A DNA stretch of 64,000 nt from Escherichia coli (GTDB lineage: Bacteria > Pseudomonadota > Gammaproteobacteria > Enterobacterales > Enterobacteriaceae), in the NCBI RefSeq assembly GCF_030013205.1, contig NZ_CP122648.1; one strand, 5' to 3'. The notes beneath the pieces were generated by a model. It was given only the letters and a program-made list of their open reading frames with translations. It made no database searches and was not told the origin of the DNA. Below are positions 34,032 through 50,265 of the stretch, one piece after another (position 1 is the stretch's first letter; every line of letters begins with the position of its first letter). A program made the position numbers and the translations under genes.

Positions 34032-34211
34032 ATGTCACTGTCAATTGTTCATACCCGCGCAGCCCTGGGAGTAAATGCGCCCCCAATCACTGTTGAGGTA
34101 CATATCAGTAAAGGTCTACCCGGCTTAACGATGGTGGGCTTACCAGAAACAACGGTAAAAGAAGCCCGCGATCGCGTGCGCAGCGCCATTATCAATAGCG
34201 GATTTTTATAA
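34032..34211 (+). pseudogene. comM: comM (competence/Mg-chelatase-like AAA+ ATPase) 5' fragment, truncated by insertion
   Basis: SD AAGGAG then MSLSIVHTRAALGVNAPPITVEVHISKGLPGLTMVGLPETTVKEARDRVRSAIINSG, then diverges (FL-stop) at the insertion junction. Confidence 0.85.
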
Positions 34212-34288
34212 ATTAGTGTTTTTTGCTGTTTCATAATGTGCCACGTTGTTCATTATGTTTTTGATTTTTAAGTCTATTACAATTTTCA

Positions 34289-34356
34289 TTGTTCCAGCTT
34301 GTTCCACGTTGTACCCCTTTGTGCAATGATCGGTGTAGTCACTGGTGTAGTCATTT
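34289..34356 (+). repeat. left copy of ~60-bp imperfect direct repeat (candidate integrase arm-type sites)
   Basis: TTGTTCCACGTTGT ... CGGTGTAGTCACTGGTGTAGTCATTT; second copy at 48778-48839. Confidence 0.6.
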
Positions 34357-34379
34357 TTTTTGCAAACAGGGGAGGAAAT

Positions 34380-35609
34380 GTGAGCAGAGCAATGAACAAA
34401 CTGAGCGACACATTGTTAAGAAAACTTCATGGTAAGCCGGCGGAGAAAAATACGTTTTATAGCGATGGCGGAAATCTGAGCGTGAAATATTTAACATCAG
34501 GGAAATTGACCTGGTATTTCACTTACAGGGCGGGAACGGGAAGGGGTACACCACCGGAACGCCTGAAGCTGGGAAATTATCCTGATCTGAGCCTGAAAGC
34601 AGCCAGGGAAAAAGCAGCACAGTGTCGCGCATGGCTGGCAGAAGGAAAAAATCCACGCCATGAGCTTAATTACTCCATACAGGAAGCACTAAAGCCGGTA
34701 ACGGTGGGCGATGCGATCAGCTACTGGCTGGAAATGCACGTAAAGGAAAACCGTGTCGATTACGTATGCCTGAAAAGCCGCCTTAATAATCACGTCATAC
34801 AGCATATTGGCAATATGCCACTGGATAAATGCGAGTTACGTCACTGGCTGGCCTGTTTTGACCGGATACGCAAAAAATCACCCGTAACATCTGGCCACAT
34901 GATGCAGGCGTGTAAACAGGCGCTTAAGTTCTGCCGTAAACGTCGCTACGCAGTCAGTAACGTTCTGGATGATCTCAACGTGGTGGACGTTGGCAAAAAG
35001 CCGGGCATAAGCGAACGCGTGCTGAGCAACAAAGAACTGAGCGAATTATTACAGGCGCTGGATAAAAAAATATTCCCGCCCTACTACAGCGCACTAATCC
35101 GCCTCCTGATTGTGTTCGGCTGCCGGACCGGAGAACTGAGGCTGTCGGAGATCAGGGAGTGGGATTTTAAGGAAATGCTCTGGACAGTACCGAAAGAGCA
35201 CAGCAAAACGAAGGTCGCCATATTCAGGCCAATACCGGAAAGCATTTTGCCGTTCGTCACACAGCTGGTGGAGCAGAACAGGCACACAGGGCTATTACTC
35301 GGGGAACTGAAACAGGAAGCCAGCGTGTCGCAATACGGCAGATTCACGCACAAAAAATTAAACCATCCGCACTGGTCACTACACGATATACGGCGCACGT
35401 TTACCACGATGCTGAACGATTTAGGCGTGGATCCACATATTGTCGAACAACTCACCGCTCACCAGATGCCAGGGATGCAACGAGTCTATAACCACTCCCG
35501 TTATATCGATGCGAAACGTAATGCGCTGGATATGTGGACAGAGCGATTAGAGATACTGGCAGGTGCTCACGAAAACGTAACCACACTGCCAATAGCCAGA
35601 GAAATATAA
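34380..35609 (+). CDS. int: tyrosine recombinase / P4-type phage integrase
   Basis: C-terminal catalytic region with HDIRRTF...HQMPGMQRVYNHSRY; start uncertain (GTG 34380 or ATG 34392). Confidence 0.85.
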   Translation: MSRAMNKLSDTLLRKLHGKPAEKNTFYSDGGNLSVKYLTSGKLTWYFTYRAGTGRGTPPERLKLGNYPDLSLKAAREKAAQCRAWLAEGKNPRHELNYSIQEALKPVTVGDAISYWLEMHVKENRVDYVCLKSRLNNHVIQHIGNMPLDKCELRHWLACFDRIRKKSPVTSGHMMQACKQALKFCRKRRYAVSNVLDDLNVVDVGKKPGISERVLSNKELSELLQALDKKIFPPYYSALIRLLIVFGCRTGELRLSEIREWDFKEMLWTVPKEHSKTKVAIFRPIPESILPFVTQLVEQNRHTGLLLGELKQEASVSQYGRFTHKKLNHPHWSLHDIRRTFTTMLNDLGVDPHIVEQLTAHQMPGMQRVYNHSRYIDAKRNALDMWTERLEILAGAHENVTTLPIAREI

Positions 35610-35630
35610 TTTTTTTCGCGATTTTTCAGA

Positions 35631-35690
35631 ACGGACACAACGTGAAACAACGAGACACAACGACGAACAACGGCGAACAATCTGGAACAA
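35631..35690. repeat. six tandem 10-bp repeats (cgNNNAACAA) downstream of int
   Basis: acggacacaa/cgtgaaacaa/cgagacacaa/cgacgaacaa/cggcgaacaa/tctggaacaa, in helical phase. Confidence 0.7.
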
Positions 35691-35976
35691 ACTTGATTAT
35701 CATCTGACCGACACCCTAAAAAGTTGATTTTCAGTCGTTTTACTGGCTTTTTGTACATTGGCGAATCACTCTTAAAAACATGTAAAAAAGGCGTAAAAAC
35801 AGAATTTTACGCTACCGCATCACAATGAATTAAAAGAGTTTTTATTCTCATTACCCCACTTCTGTAAAACGACCGCCACCAGTGTTTGCCATTCCATAAA
35901 CACCCTGACACAATCCGACCCAACCCAACCCAATAATCCACCCAATGACTCTTTAAGAAACAACAAAGGGGGAATT

Positions 35977-47573: not shown

Positions 47574-47578
47574 CCTCA

Positions 47579-47840
47579 AAAAGTGTCAAGTTGAGCAGCT
47601 TGCCAGGTTGACACTTTACACTCTGAACGCGAAAAAGTGTCAACCTCGCTGTAAGCCCCGCCATTACTGGCCTTTCGCCAGATTTACCACGTCAAAAAGC
47701 CGAAAAAATCGCGAAAAGTGTCAAGTTGCCATGCTTAGAAATGCTAAGGTTTGATAAGGTTTTTCGCGAAAAAGTGTCAAGTGTGTCAACCTGCGATGTT
47801 AAGATTTGTTAAGGTCTTAAGCCGGAAAGTGTCAACCAGC
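47579..47840. repeat. array of seven GTGTCAA(C/G) repeats (candidate packaging / protein-binding site)
   Basis: copies at 47583, 47608 (inverted), 47637, 47718, 47774, 47783, 47829, most preceded by GAAAAA. Confidence 0.7.
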
Positions 47841-47866
47841 CCCTAAGATTTCCTAAGGTGTAAATC

Positions 47867-48046
47867 ATGACCATCACCGAAGCCGATATGCTGGAGATGA
47901 TCCGCAGCATTGCCGGAATCAAACAACCTGCAAGCAAAATTAACAGGTGTTCAGCGCCTGTTTCCGTTGTGCTGCAACAGGAACGCCACCAGCAGGATGA
48001 TGTGAGGCCGTATCAGTGGAAGAAACCGGACAGGCCGCGACGGTGA
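47867..48046 (+). CDS. possible small protein
   Basis: 59-codon ORF MTITEADMLEMIRSIAGIKQ... with SD AAGGTG 7 nt upstream; below the ORF-track length cutoff. Confidence 0.35.
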   Translation: MTITEADMLEMIRSIAGIKQPASKINRCSAPVSVVLQQERHQQDDVRPYQWKKPDRPRR

Positions 48047-48777
48047 GCGGAGCGTTCGGTAAGGCTACAGCCAAGCCTTACATTAAGCCTACGGGTAACC
48101 CTTCGAAGGGGCTTTAAAGGGGAGATGATTATCCTTACCCGTTGATAAACAAGCAAACCTCAAATTTGAGGTTTGTATCTGCCTGACTTATTTTTGTGCT
48201 AAGTTGTTGATATATCCGACGACGCAAAATTGCGCTGGCTACATCCCTCACATCTGAGGACTGTTAACCAGCAAGCCGGAATATATTCACAAACTACGAA
48301 ATTTTCGCAGTTTAATTACTCGCCAGCTTAATCGCTAACCCGTTGATTGTTCCAGAATCCCCCATTGGGGAAAACTGGAAAACTCACCCTCCAGATTCTG
48401 AATGGTGAAAATCACCGGGGATCTGAATAGGCATTTCCTCTATGGAGGTCGCACCGTTTTCGGGAGAAGGTGCGATCATGTTCGTCATACCTGTTCCGTT
48501 GAAACGGAATACCCCATTCCGGCGTAGCTGGTGGACGCACAGCCACATACGAAAAATTGCATTCAGGAGGGGGGATCGAAATCCCTACAACCTATTGCTT
48601 ATGGGACCGCACGCCTCGTCAAATTTTTACACCCGCGAAAAATACTTCATGCTGGTGGGCATGATGCCGATATGGGGATCCCCATAACGGGTTATCCGTG
48701 ATCATCCACCAGCTTCATTTAGAACTATGCAAATCTGCATAGAAAAATCGTCCCTTCCTGTATATCGCTTGTGTCTA

Positions 48778-48839
48778 TTTGTTCCACGTTGTTGCATACA
48801 GTGCACCGAACGGTGTAGTTAATGGTGTAGTCAATTTGC
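48778..48839 (+). repeat. right copy of ~60-bp imperfect direct repeat (candidate integrase arm-type sites)
   Basis: TTTGTTCCACGTTGTTGCATACAGTGCACCGAACGGTGTAGTTAATGGTGTAGTCAATTT, about 80 percent identical to 34299-34356. Confidence 0.6.
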
Positions 48840-48906
48840 GATTTTTAACGTTATTTGTAGTGATATTTATCGTTTAAATTCAATAAATTAAATTGTTTTA
48901 ATTATA

Positions 48907-50265
48907 AATAGCGGATATGAATATCCGGCGAAAAAAATCACCATCAACCTTGCTCCAGCCGATCTGCCAAAAGAAGGGGGACGATATGATTTACCTATCG
49001 CCATTGCGTTGCTGGCGGCCTCAGAACAGCTTACAGCCAATAAATTAGATGAATATGAATTAGTCGGAGAACTGGCGCTTACAGGCGCTCTGCGTGGCGT
49101 TCCCGGCGCAATCTCCAGTGCAACTGAAGCTATTAAGTCGGGCAGAAAAATTATCGTCGCGAAAGATAACGAAGATGAAGTGGGGCTAATTAACGGTGAA
49201 GGATGCCTGATAGCCGATCATCTGCAGGCTGTCTGTGCGTTTCTGGAAGGTAAGCACGCTCTCGAACGCCCGAAACCAACTGATGCAGTATCCCGGGCAC
49301 AACAACATGATCTCAATGATGTTGTCGGTCAGGAGCAAGGAAAGCGAGGACTGGAAATTACCGCCGCTGGCGGGCACAACCTTTTACTGATTGGGCCGCC
49401 GGGAACAGGTAAAACAATGCTCGCCAGCCGTATTAATGGCCTGTTGCCAGATTTAAGCAATGAAGAGGCACTGGAGAGCGCGGCGATATTAAGTCTGGTA
49501 AATGCTGAATCAGTACAAAAACAATGGCGGCAGCGCCCGTTCCGCTCACCGCATCACAGTGCGTCGTTAACTGCGATGGTGGGCGGTGGTGCAATTCCAG
49601 GGCCAGGTGAAATTTCGCTGGCACATAACGGCGTGCTTTTTCTTGATGAGCTACCTGAATTTGAACGGCGTACACTGGATGCCTTGCGAGAGCCGATTGA
49701 ATCCGGGCAGATCCATCTTTCACGCACACGAGCAAAAATAACCTATCCAGCCCGTTTCCAACTTGTTGCGGCGATGAATCCCAGCCCTACCGGACATTAT
49801 CAGGGAAACCATAACCGCTGCACACCAGAACAGACATTACGTTATCTCAACCGGCTCTCGGGGCCCTTTCTCGACCGCTTCGATCTCTCACTGGAGATCC
49901 CATTACCGCCCCCCGGCATTTTGAGTAAAACGGTAGTGCCGGGAGAAAACAGCACCACCGTTAAACAACGCGTAATGGCCGCCAGAGAGCGCCAATTTAA
50001 GCGGCAGAATAAACTGAATGCCTGGCTGGATAGTCCGGAAATACGCCAATTCTGCAAGCTTGAGAGCGAAGATGCGCAGTGGCTGGAAGAAACGCTGATC
50101 CATCTGGGGTTATCGATTCGTGCCTGGCAGCGGTTACTGAAAGTAGCACGAACCATTGCTGATATTGATCAGTCCGACATTATCACACGTCAGCATTTGC
50201 AGGAGGCAGTTAGCTATCGTGCCATTGACCGTTTGCTCATCCATCTGCAAAAACTACTGACATAA
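48907..50265 (+). pseudogene. comM: comM 3' fragment (AAA+ Mg-chelatase-like ATPase)
   Basis: frame resumes ...NSGYEYPAKKITINLAPADLPKEGGRYDLPIAIALLAASEQ...; Walker A GPPGTGKT; no start codon of its own at the junction. Confidence 0.85.

What the first reader, a model, noticed from the sequence alone, without database searches (positions are those of the whole stretch)
34194..48916. comM is split by a ~14.7-kb integrative element bounded by a 10-bp direct repeat
The comM frame runs from 34032 to ...IINSG, then reads FL-stop at 34209-34211. It resumes exactly at ...NSGYEYPAKKITINLAPADLP at 48907 and continues to the normal stop at 50265. Both junctions carry AATAGCGGAT (34194-34203 and 48907-48916), and the intervening DNA starts with a tyrosine integrase. 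That is the signature of site-specific integration into comM, leaving a 58-codon stub and a promoterless 3' remnant. The cargo is almost entirely uncharacterised, so this is the most likely place for an undescribed system.
Basis: partly seen in the sequence, partly recalled or inferred. Interest (0 to 1): 0.85.

Follow-up and report, generated by a model that had tools for sequence, protein, structure and literature searches.

The report
Phage satellite inserted in comM
The E. coli gene comM is cleanly split by a 14.7-kb phage satellite (a PICI-type island) that carries copies of its helper phage's scaffold/protease, tail chaperone and tail tape-measure genes; the insertion itself is ordinary, but the tail-gene cassette is an uncommon and testable feature.

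Summary
AATAGCGGAT occurs only at 34194-34203 and 48907-48916. Removing the DNA between the copies restores a 506-aa comM ORF, and that joined sequence is uninterrupted in 5398 of 5426 complete E. coli genomes.

The insert is not an uncharacterised system. It is a Gram-negative PICI-type phage satellite with four zones:
- integration: tyrosine integrase and AlpA;
- Bro zone: Ant antirepressor and an Icd-like ORF;
- replication: RepA helicase and an iteron origin;
- late zone.

About 27 genomes carry an element at this comM junction, and those inspected include classical cfPICIs. Integrases 93-98% identical serve a second site, abgR|smrA, which differs mainly in the crossover bases.

The late zone holds diverged copies of a Rac-SA53/pPE4-type myovirus protease-scaffold gene, a TerS/Xis-like wHTH protein, and a discrete 2,778-bp cassette. 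The cassette encodes a tail assembly chaperone with a conserved -1 slippery site and a tape measure protein (89% identical over its first 501 residues to pPE4's, with a swapped muralytic domain). Strain ETEC1748 carries the same element at 99.8% identity without the cassette.

The satellite family co-occurs with this helper type (at least 18 of 33 genomes versus 1.7% background). The closest functional precedent is Vibrio PLE chimeric tails. I rate this a new variant of a known kind, of moderate interest.

The parts
34032..34202 (+). comM (yifB) 5' fragment: 57 native codons, followed by F-L-stop read from element DNA
34194..34203 (.). attL core AATAGCGGAT. The extended identity with attR is ATTAT[C/A]AATAGCGGAT.
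34299..34353 (+). P' arm block: TTGTTCCACGTTGT ... GGTGTAGTCACTGGTGTAGTCA (a doubled motif). The same block lies in direct orientation in the P arm. Putative arm-type Int/AlpA binding sites.
34380..35609 (+). Tyrosine integrase, 409 aa, with catalytic R249, H335xxR338 and Y370
   Evidence: phrog_1 at 2.9e-71; 93-98% aa identity to integrases of cfPICIs in comM and of relatives at abgR|smrA
35977..36165 (+). AlpA (excisionase / master activator family)
   Evidence: Pfam Phage_AlpA at 3.4e-18; phrog_2790
36218..37018 (+). AntA/AntB-type antirepressor (Bro zone)
   Evidence: phrog_5817 at 5.9e-42; 41% identity to the Rac-SA53 ant gene
37289..38095 (.). Mosaic Bro-zone patch that differs from the otherwise 99.8%-identical ETEC1748 element. 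The overlapping stretch 37314-38273 is 95.5% identical to a cfPICI in comM. It contains a ylcI/ynfO-family gene on the minus strand (37646-37843).
38049..38252 (+). Icd-like ORF, 67 aa, containing only the C-terminal Icd-like domain
   Evidence: NF033153 at 3.5e-20
38245..39098 (+). Three small conserved ORFs: phrog_340 twice, then DUF4222
39095..40507 (+). RepA-family replicative helicase, 470 aa
   Evidence: phrog_2850 at 2e-220, plus helicase parts of primase-helicase PHROGs
40507..40900 (.). Putative origin of replication. Seven exact AAAAGTGGG cores in both orientations (five plus, two minus), further imperfect copies, AT-rich spacers and a 38-bp perfect inverted repeat (40564-40601 / 40788-40825).
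40919..41692 (+). Orphan 257-aa protein in the PICI accessory hotspot downstream of the replication gene. Candidate accessory or defence gene; function unknown.
   Evidence: No Pfam, NCBIfam or PADLOC hit. 26 clusters, the named ones all Enterobacterales. AF2 pLDDT 86.7 with no PDB fold match. Hotspot described in PMC11364771.
41716..42530 (+). ProQ/FinO-family RNA chaperone (41716-42246) and PerC-family regulator (42243-42530)
42570..42600 (+). Strong intrinsic-terminator-like hairpin (12-bp stem) separating the early/replication genes from the late zone
42944..43528 (+). 194-aa protein. Residues 60-188 are 65% identical to the C-terminal end of the helper's 430-aa protease-scaffold candidate rac43; the N-terminus is unique. 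Proposed alternative scaffold. The RefSeq label 'NUDIX hydrolase' is not supported.
   Evidence: phrog_6216 positions 405-545
43593..44276 (+). DUF2213 protein, 227 aa, 54% identical to the N-terminal half of helper rac43. Weak head-maturation-protease similarity.
   Evidence: Pfam DUF2213 at 4.4e-6; phrog_6216 positions 115-326 and phrog_530
44268..47045 (+). 2,778-bp TAC-TMP cassette. It is absent from the 99.8%-identical element in ETEC1748. Its joints lie at the TAC start codon and 51 nt after the TMP stop.
44273..44955 (+). Tail assembly chaperone, 205 aa in frame 0 (44273-44890). Slippery T TTT TTT at 44653-44659. The -1 frame is open from 44647, and its stop overlaps the TMP ATG at 44955.
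   Evidence: 82-85% aa identity to helper rac52/gp55. Slippery site at the same position in two satellites and two phages and in L030.
44955..46994 (+). Tape measure protein, 679 aa. Residues 1-501 are 88.6% identical to the pPE4 TMP. Residues 508-638 form an endolysin-like muralytic domain that replaces the helper's SLT-type domain. The last ~25 residues are helper-like.
   Evidence: phrog_7694 at 1.9e-290
47046..47573 (+). 175-aa protein with an N-terminal TerS/Xis-type winged HTH and a C-terminal domain without a known fold. Candidate packaging-specificity factor.
47867..48046 (+). Conserved 59-aa ORF, followed by a variable stretch (about 48235-48662) that is absent from the STEC346 relative
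48779..48833 (+). P arm copy of the TTGTTCCACGTTGT ... GGTGTAGTTAATGGTGTAGTCA block
48907..48916 (.). attR core AATAGCGGAT. It overlaps the comM palindrome CGGATATGAATATCCG (48912-48927).
48907..50265 (+). comM 3' fragment (codon 54 onward). In-frame stop at 48889 and no start codon before TTG 49009.

Best explanation
The insert is a phage-inducible chromosomal island (PICI-type satellite) of E. coli.

**Integration.** Its tyrosine integrase recombines an attP with overlap AATAGCGGAT against codons 54-57 of comM. This inactivates the gene reversibly. The same integrase lineage serves a second site, abgR|smrA, when attP carries AATATCGTGA instead.

**Life cycle (inferred by analogy with characterised Gram-negative PICIs).**
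- A helper phage switches on AlpA.
- Int plus AlpA excise the island.
- RepA replicates it from the iteron origin.
- The late operon is expressed.

**Helper.** The most likely helper is a temperate Rac-SA53/pPE4-type myovirus.

**Late zone (functions inferred).**
- The helper's protease-scaffold gene is present as two separate, diverged ORFs. The scaffold C-terminal homologue with a new N-terminus most plausibly redirects assembly to small capsids that fit about 15 kb.
- A TerS/Xis-like wHTH protein is a candidate for directing packaging to satellite DNA.
- An optional cassette supplies a tail assembly chaperone and a tape measure protein. The TMP keeps the helper-like assembly regions but has a different cell-wall-degrading domain. 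Transducing particles would then carry chimeric tails, as shown for Vibrio PLEs.

**Shown versus inferred.** The anatomy, the att sites, the homologies, the cassette polymorphism and the co-occurrence with the helper type are shown here. Induction, small capsids, packaging and TMP incorporation are inferred.
For: **Integration**
- Exact reconstitution of comM, and an intact site in 5398 of 5426 genomes.
- The same junction is used by cfPICIs and by a short relative in other strains.
- The two attB sites share 20 of 27 bases and differ mainly in the overlap, while their integrases are 93-98% identical and do not sort by site.

**PICI backbone**
- Int, AlpA (Pfam 3.4e-18), Ant, Icd-like, RepA and ProQ/PerC.
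- Iteron origin and a terminator before the late zone.
- The layout matches the four-zone scheme, and capture of helper late genes is a described process.

**Helper link**
- DUF2213 is 54% and the 194-aa protein 65% identical to the two ends of rac43, which lies between the portal/MuF genes and the major capsid gene.
- TAC is 82-85% and TMP residues 1-501 are 88.6% identical to the phage genes that lie between the tail tube and the baseplate genes.
- The satellite late gene pair is in 33 of 5426 genomes. At least 18 of these 33 also carry the helper head-tail module, which 93 of 5426 genomes have. The hypergeometric P is 2.5e-24, uncorrected for clonality.

**Cassette looks functional**
- ORFs are intact in the window, STEC346, L014 and the ~15%-diverged L030.
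- The slippery site is conserved.
- dN/dS is 0.10-0.24.
- The extreme C-terminus is helper-like.

**Size.** 14.7 kb against 47.5-52.3 kb for the helper gives a ratio of 0.28-0.31. From my own knowledge this resembles P4/P2 and SaPI/80alpha.

**Precedent.** PLE TAC and TMP build chimeric tails (PMC12987554).
Against: - **No helper seen in this strain.** The Rac site (uspF|ttcA) of ETEC4079 is empty. The genome shows no TAC-only locus beyond its three satellite copies.
- **No excised form seen.** No attP junction was found in IMG/VR or JGI metagenome contigs, so excision and packaging are undocumented.
- **The wHTH protein is ambiguous.** It is only weakly TerS/Rpp-like and could instead be a regulator or an excisionase.
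- **DUF2213 is not an established protease.** Its only protease link is a weak PHROG hit at 5e-5.
- **The cassette is optional.** About 13 genomes cover 80% or more of the whole late zone, out of 33 with the core late pair.
- **TMP alleles may be captured passively.** TMP alleles in different satellites track different phage alleles. This pattern could reflect repeated passive capture, in which case part of the low dN/dS was earned inside phages.
- **SatelliteFinder would treat tail genes as forbidden in a PICI**.
Confidence: 0.75

Rival explanations
1. The TAC-TMP cassette is an interference or defence device rather than a transfer device. Satellite TAC or TMP would enter helper tail assembly and poison it, or make tails that eject the long phage genome poorly. 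That would lower helper yield and protect the population.
For: - Tail-assembly inhibition is a known strategy of PICIs, prophages and PLE11 (Tai in PMC11364771; Rta).
- The TMP keeps the helper-like N-terminal 500 residues and the C-terminal tail, so it would compete for the same partners.
- The cassette is optional, as accessory genes are.
Against: - The TMP is full length, has a complete muralytic domain and is under purifying selection along its whole length.
- One satellite (L030) carries an allele 86% identical overall to the phage TMP, including the same SLT-type C-terminal domain. That is hard to reconcile with a dominant-negative role.
Confidence: 0.15
2. The element is a mosaic, decaying remnant. 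It would be a PICI backbone that picked up fragments of a prophage by illegitimate or homologous recombination, is no longer mobile, and carries late genes that are passengers.
For: - The protease-scaffold homologue is split, with the two parts in reversed order.
- The Icd-like gene is truncated and the Bro zone is patchy.
- No helper was detected in the host strain.
- No attP form was found in public contigs.
Against: - Int, AlpA, RepA, the origin and both att sites are intact.
- The split arrangement is conserved in all 33 genomes and in 17 IMG/VR contigs, with dN/dS of 0.07-0.29.
- Near-identical elements sit at different chromosomal sites and in unrelated strains from pig, goat, cattle, otter, crow and human. 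That requires recent mobility.
Confidence: 0.08
3. The biologically relevant function is regulated gene integrity. The island would act as a reversible switch of comM, with the cargo secondary.
For: - yifB is listed among candidate regulated-integrity targets (PMC7192596).
- The insertion lies inside the conserved N-terminal region and is not compensated by element sequence.
- The same junction is used by at least four distinct elements.
Against: - Only about 0.5% of complete E. coli genomes are occupied.
- The same integrase lineage uses an intergenic site, abgR|smrA, more often among the closest relatives, so comM looks like one of several landing pads.
- I know of no comM phenotype in E. 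coli that would be worth switching. This rests on my own knowledge and was not tested.
Confidence: 0.05

Closest known systems
Gram-negative PICIs (EcCICFT073 / EcCIMP1 type) in the four-zone scheme of Tommasini, Mageeney and Williams (10.1101/2022.07.18.500453)
   Same: - int and alpA at the left end.
- A Bro/antirepressor zone and a replication gene with its origin.
- A PerC-family regulator and a late zone made of captured helper late genes.
- Size of 10-15 kb.
- An att site shared with cfPICIs.
- An accessory hotspot after the replication gene.

   Different: - The late zone is not the lambdoid capsid-morphogenesis/Rpp set.
- It is derived from a Rac-SA53-type myovirus: split DUF2213 protease-scaffold homologues plus a TAC-TMP cassette.
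- Tail genes are 'forbidden' in the SatelliteFinder PICI model.
Capsid-forming PICIs (cfPICI, EcCIEDL933 type)
   Same: - Elements with a 93-97% identical integrase occupy the very same comM junction.
- The AlpA/Icd/DUF4222/replication/ProQ-PerC backbone is the same type.
- One stretch of the window's Bro zone is 95.5% identical to one of them.
- Putative tmp genes have been noted in some cf-PICIs (PMC12987554, Extended Data Fig. 10).
   Different: There is no HK97 major capsid protein, portal, head-tail connector, HNH or TerL. The element must therefore use helper capsid proteins.
Vibrio cholerae PLEs (chimeric tails; Nature 2026, PMC12987554)
   Same: A satellite that encodes its own tail assembly chaperone and tape measure protein next to a capsid-scaffold-type gene, for use with helper tube, sheath and baseplate.
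   Different: - The backbone, host and helper are unrelated.
- PLE proteins are only 19-41% identical to ICP1's, whereas here TAC and TMP are 82-89% identical to phage alleles and exchange with them.
- The TMP length is nearly unchanged (679 aa against 657-693 aa), so tail length should not change.
- The cassette is optional here, while tmp and tac are conserved in all PLEs.
- Nothing has been shown experimentally here.
SaPI CpmB / 80alpha scaffold, P4 Sid and PLE TcaP (capsid size redirection)
   Same: A satellite protein that shares the capsid-binding C-terminal part of the helper scaffold but has a different N-terminal part, in a satellite about 0.3 times the helper genome. The analogy comes from my own knowledge of the SaPI literature.
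   Different: There is no sequence relationship, and size redirection was not tested. Here the helper gene appears to be a protease-scaffold fusion, and the satellite keeps both halves as separate genes.

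Membership tests
Gram-negative PICI | Integrase at one end, element flanked by att direct repeats, size about 10-15 kb | tested here: met
   int at 34380-35609; the 10-bp repeat at both comM breakpoints; 14,713 bp
Gram-negative PICI | AlpA-family regulator just downstream of int | tested here: met
   Pfam Phage_AlpA at 3.4e-18; phrog_2790
Gram-negative PICI | Primase/replicase module with an adjacent origin | tested here: met
   RepA-family helicase (phrog_2850 at 2e-220) followed by an iteron array. 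No primase domain was detected in this copy; relatives carry DUF927 or primase genes at the same place.
Gram-negative PICI | Capsid morphogenesis gene(s) | tested here: inconclusive
   Homologues of the two halves of the helper's candidate protease-scaffold gene. Their function is not shown.
Gram-negative PICI | Small terminase or Rpp-type packaging factor | tested here: inconclusive
Gram-negative PICI | No tail or lysis genes (forbidden components in SatelliteFinder) | tested here: not met
   TAC and TMP are present; no lysis genes were found. The rule is quoted.
Gram-negative PICI | Helper-dependent induction, packaging and high-frequency transfer | not testable with these tools
   Only indirect evidence: co-occurrence with the helper type, and identical elements at different sites and in different strains
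cfPICI | Own HK97-type capsid, portal, protease, head-tail connectors and TerL | tested here: not met
   None were found by PHROG or NCBIfam scans of all ORFs. Sister elements in comM do have them.
P4-like satellite | psu-delta-sid operon, epsilon and alpha primase | tested here: not met
   No such PHROG or NCBIfam hits; only int and alpA are shared
PLE | PLE core gene set (capR, repA-PLE, nixI, lidI, tcaP and others) in Vibrio | not tested
   No PLE sequences were compared. The resemblance is functional (TAC plus TMP) and rests.
Tape measure protein | Gene directly after a chaperone gene with a -1 frameshift, homologous to the phage gene between tail tube and baseplate, and long | tested here: met
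   Virion incorporation is not testable here.
Integrative elements that inactivate their target gene (TIGER 'regulated gene integrity' criteria) | Conserved coding region disrupted without restoration, and several independent elements with related integrases at the same position | tested here: met
   Whether the disruption is regulatory was not tested.

The most novel reading that the evidence does not exclude
This would be the first enterobacterial example of a non-capsid-forming PICI that rebuilds its helper's tail. The optional TAC-TMP cassette would be incorporated into Rac-type myovirus tails. Satellite particles would then carry a tape measure with a different cell-wall-degrading domain, altering entry or escaping TMP-directed exclusion or defence. 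A split protease-scaffold pair would downsize the capsid. In addition, the orphan 257-aa protein in the accessory hotspot, which has a confident fold with no known relative, would be a new anti-phage gene.
Probability: 0.3. Interest if true: 0.7.

Novelty: new variant of a known kind. Interest (0 to 1): 0.45.

Why it matters
**The comM insertion.** It is routine. It adds a documented PICI/cfPICI attachment site. It also gives a clear example of one integrase lineage serving two chromosomal sites that differ mainly in the crossover bases.

**The late zone.** This is the more useful part.
- Manipulation of tail assembly by satellites has so far been demonstrated only for Vibrio PLEs.
- Here a tail chaperone plus tape-measure cassette sits in an E. 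coli satellite.
- Two strains carry the same island at the same site, 99.8% identical, with the cassette (ETEC4079) and without it (ETEC1748).
- A sequenced candidate helper type is available.
- Together these make the question 'why would a satellite bring its own tape measure?' directly testable in a tractable organism.

**A gap in detection.** Search rules that forbid tail genes will miss such satellites.

Tried and rejected
- **Known defence systems.** PADLOC gave no significant hit for any of the 20 ORFs: only two weak matches, PDC-S22 on the Ant C-terminus and mad1 at E 0.007.
- **Pfam.** Nothing significant for the TMP-like, 194-aa, 257-aa and 175-aa proteins. The RefSeq names 'NUDIX hydrolase' and 'lytic transglycosylase domain' are therefore not backed by Pfam. 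The muralytic domain is supported instead by PDB sequence matches.
- **Immunity RNAs.** I scanned the Bro zone and the right end with Rfam for C4/IsrK-type RNAs and found only chance-level hits.
- **Fold of the 257-aa orphan.** No PDB match at E below 0.5.
- **Excised circular form.** A degenerate attP junction pattern covering both site types found nothing in IMG/VR or JGI metagenome contigs. The IMG/VR relatives have no terminal repeats and no att arms.
- **Helper in the same strain.** The Rac site and the abgR-smrA interval of ETEC4079 are free of prophage and satellite. ETEC4079 is not among the 60 listed of 93 helper-bearing genomes; 33 were not listed.
- **Icd-like gene 'interrupted by an insertion carrying ylcI'.** Rejected. 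The region is a recombinational patch shared with a cfPICI.
- **Conjugatively mobilised element** (suggested by ProQ/FinO, RepA and 'transglycosylase'). Rejected. There is no relaxase or transfer gene, and the transglycosylase is a phage TMP.
- **The 10-bp repeat as evidence by itself.** Rejected, because about 1950 such pairs are expected by chance.

Full report
**Source and observation.** The window is 100% identical to the chromosome of E. coli ETEC4079, a pig isolate from Belgium (NZ_CP122643.1). The reported repeat AATAGCGGAT lies at 34194-34203 and 48907-48916 and nowhere else in the window.

A 10-mer repeat is not meaningful by itself, because about 1950 exact 10-mer pairs are expected in 64 kb. 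The evidence is positional:
- Deleting one copy and everything between the copies gives a 506-aa comM/yifB ORF without a stop.
- The joined junction is 100% identical to intact yifB in another strain.
- It is continuous in 5398 of 5426 complete E. coli genomes.
- The left stub has 57 native codons followed by F-L-stop.
- The right fragment has an in-frame stop at 48889 and no start before TTG 49009.

**Integration system.**
- *Integrase.* The first gene is a 409-aa tyrosine integrase with the catalytic R, HxxR and Y residues.
- *Arm motifs.* Both arms carry the same block of about 55 bp, in direct orientation: TTGTTCCACGTTGT ... GGTGTAGTnAnTGGTGTAGTCA. These are plausible arm-type binding sites.
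- *Occupancy of comM.* About 27 genomes (0.5%) have something at this comM junction. Two that I inspected are canonical capsid-forming PICIs. One is a short relative of the present element. One is the same element at 99.8% identity.
- *A second site.* Most close relatives sit between abgR and smrA.
- *Integrases do not sort by site.* Identities are 93-98%. An abgR-site integrase is 97.6% identical to one comM-site integrase, while two comM-site integrases are only 93.6% identical to each other.
- *The two target sites.* CATTATCAATAGCGGATATGAATATCC (comM) and CATTATTAATATCGTGAATGAATAATC (abgR|smrA) share 20 of 27 positions and differ mostly in the central bases. Each element carries the matching core.
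- *Reading.* The simplest interpretation is one integrase specificity with two attP overlap variants. Comparable att 'drift' among very similar PICI integrases has been described. yifB is already listed as a target of integrative elements.

**What the element is.** Gene by gene, the order is:
1. int
2. AlpA (Pfam Phage_AlpA, 3.4e-18)
3. AntA/AntB antirepressor
4. a mosaic stretch with a ylcI/ynfO-family gene and an Icd-like ORF
5. three small conserved ORFs
6. a RepA-family helicase
7. an intergenic array with seven exact AAAAGTGGG cores plus imperfect copies and a 38-bp perfect inverted repeat, a typical origin
8. an orphan 257-aa gene
9. ProQ/FinO and PerC
10. a strong terminator
11. a late zone

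This is the published Integration / Bro / Replication / Late layout of Gram-negative PICIs, whose late zones capture helper late genes. The backbone genes are the ones listed for characterised E. coli PICIs. PADLOC gave no significant match.

**Late zone and helper.** Two phage records share this DNA: Escherichia phage Rac-SA53 and a record named Actinobacillus phage vB_Apl-pPE4. Their structural modules read TerS, TerL, portal, MuF-like, rac43, rac44, major capsid..., sheath, tube, rac52, 'lytic transglycosylase', baseplate, fibres.
- *DUF2213 protein.* The satellite's 227-aa protein is 54% identical to the N-terminal half of rac43.
- *194-aa protein.* Residues 60-188 are 65% identical to the C-terminal end of rac43. 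The helper's candidate protease-scaffold gene is therefore present as two separate genes in reversed order.
- *Chaperone.* The 205-aa protein is 82-85% identical to rac52.
- *Frameshift.* It has a T TTT TTT slippery site at the same position as in both phages. The -1 frame opens there, and its stop overlaps the start of the next gene, which is the classical tail-chaperone arrangement.
- *Tape measure protein.* The 679-aa protein is 88.6% identical to the pPE4 tape measure over residues 1-501. Residues 508-638 match a solved endolysin (7q47, 1e-10) instead of the phage's SLT-type domain. The last ~25 residues again resemble the phage protein.

**The cassette.**
- *Presence/absence.* Compared with the ETEC1748 element, the window has a clean 2,778-bp extra segment (44268-47045). 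It runs from the chaperone start codon to 51 nt past the tape-measure stop. There is also a replaced 807-bp Bro-zone patch.
- *Distribution.* The same right joint is found in STEC346 at the other att site. About 13 genomes cover 80% or more of the whole late zone. Four of 17 IMG/VR relatives carry the cassette, including a ~15% diverged one with all ORFs intact and the slippery site conserved.
- *Selection.* dN/dS between satellite copies is 0.10-0.24 for the chaperone and tape measure, and 0.07-0.29 for the two rac43-derived genes.
- *Caveat.* The diverged satellite carries a tape-measure allele with the phage-type SLT domain, 86% identical to pPE4's. Alleles therefore move between phages and satellites, and part of the selection signal may have been earned in phages.

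**Association with the helper type.**
- *Counts.* The satellite-specific late pair occurs in 33 of 5426 genomes (47 loci; three loci in ETEC4079). The helper head-tail module, queried without the chaperone and tape-measure genes, occurs in 93 genomes.
- *Overlap.* At least 18 of the 33 satellite genomes are among the 60 listed helper genomes, against 0.57 expected. The hypergeometric P is 2.5e-24, not corrected for clonality.
- *Proximity.* In several genomes the abgR|smrA-sited satellite lies 30-40 kb from the helper's structural genes.
- *This strain.* ETEC4079 appears to lack the helper. Its Rac site is empty, and it shows no chaperone-only locus beyond its three satellite copies.

**Mechanism proposed.**
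- *Shown:* the anatomy, att sites, homologies, polymorphism and co-occurrence.
- *Inferred from characterised PICIs:* helper-induced AlpA expression, Int/AlpA excision and RepA replication.
- *Inferred by analogy with SaPI CpmB, P4 Sid and PLE TcaP:* the scaffold-C-terminus homologue redirects capsid size. The genome ratio is 0.28-0.31.
- *Weakly inferred:* the wHTH protein directs packaging.
- *Inferred by analogy with PLEs*: the chaperone and tape measure are built into helper tails. Because the lengths are similar (679 aa against 657-693 aa), the likely effect is on the muralytic or entry function, or on escape from TMP-directed exclusion, rather than on tail length.

**Comparison and novelty.**
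- *Classification.* The element is a PICI by backbone. It is not a cfPICI, P4-like element or PLE (see the membership table).
- *What is already described.* Capture of helper late genes. Satellite tape measures have been demonstrated in PLEs and noted bioinformatically in cf-PICIs and mycobacterial EPIPs.
- *What I did not find in the held library.* A description of this Rac-type-derived late zone, or of a chaperone plus tape-measure cassette in a non-capsid-forming E. coli PICI.
- *Detection.* SatelliteFinder's PICI model forbids tail genes, so such elements may be under-reported.

Noticed in passing
Outside the window: NZ_CP122643.1, two further loci not located: ETEC4079 has three loci matching the satellite-specific late gene pair (194-aa plus DUF2213). 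The strain therefore carries two more related satellites besides the one in comM.
   Followed up: partly
L008 (NZ_CP122643.1 2695001-2745000): In ETEC4079 the usual site of the closest relatives (abgR|smrA) holds three other genes instead: a frameshifted MFS transporter, HlyD and an AraC regulator. The Rac attachment region uspF|ttcA is empty.
   Followed up: partly
Related genomes: cq9, ETEC1716, ETEC1732, STEC719, ETEC1747: Satellites at abgR|smrA lie only about 30-40 kb from the structural genes of the helper-type prophage. They are therefore next to the Rac-type prophage site. Such adjacency could matter for co-induction or in-situ packaging.
   Followed up: no
L004 (PP818812.1): The record named 'Actinobacillus phage vB_Apl-pPE4' is 97-99.6% identical over 10.6 kb to prophages of many E. 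coli genomes, for example cq9 at 99.6%. Its host assignment looks doubtful.
   Followed up: partly
window 23684-24133: A solitary PemK/MazF-family toxin gene lies between rep and ppiC, with no antitoxin annotated. It is present at the same place in TUM9757 and absent in E700025.
   Followed up: no
window 11594-11635: In the ECA cluster, wecC is followed after 40 bp by rffC. From my own knowledge of the K-12 gene order, rffG and rffH normally lie between them, and they appear to be missing.
   Followed up: no
window 40564-40601 and 40788-40825: A 38-bp perfect inverted repeat pair, 186 bp apart, lies inside the putative origin. Each arm contains iterons flanking a TATATATA core.
   Followed up: partly
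window 48235-48662: A stretch near the right end is present in the window and in ETEC1748 but absent from the STEC346 relative. It holds only short ORFs without matches (81 aa at 48442-48687). It could be a small 3' accessory region or could contain the packaging site.
   Followed up: no
window 33461-33750 (- strand): An Rfam Rev39_5p_UTR match (157 bits) covers the ilvL/ilvX leader region next to the comM promoter side. It is ordinary and unrelated to the element.
   Followed up: no
Helper prophages: RefSeq labels one head-region gene 'anti-CBASS protein Acb1 family protein' in most helper-type prophages. In strains SA53-3 and P393-F10 the feature list shows 'DUF1073 domain-containing protein' in its place. 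This is either an annotation inconsistency or a real fusion.
   Followed up: no
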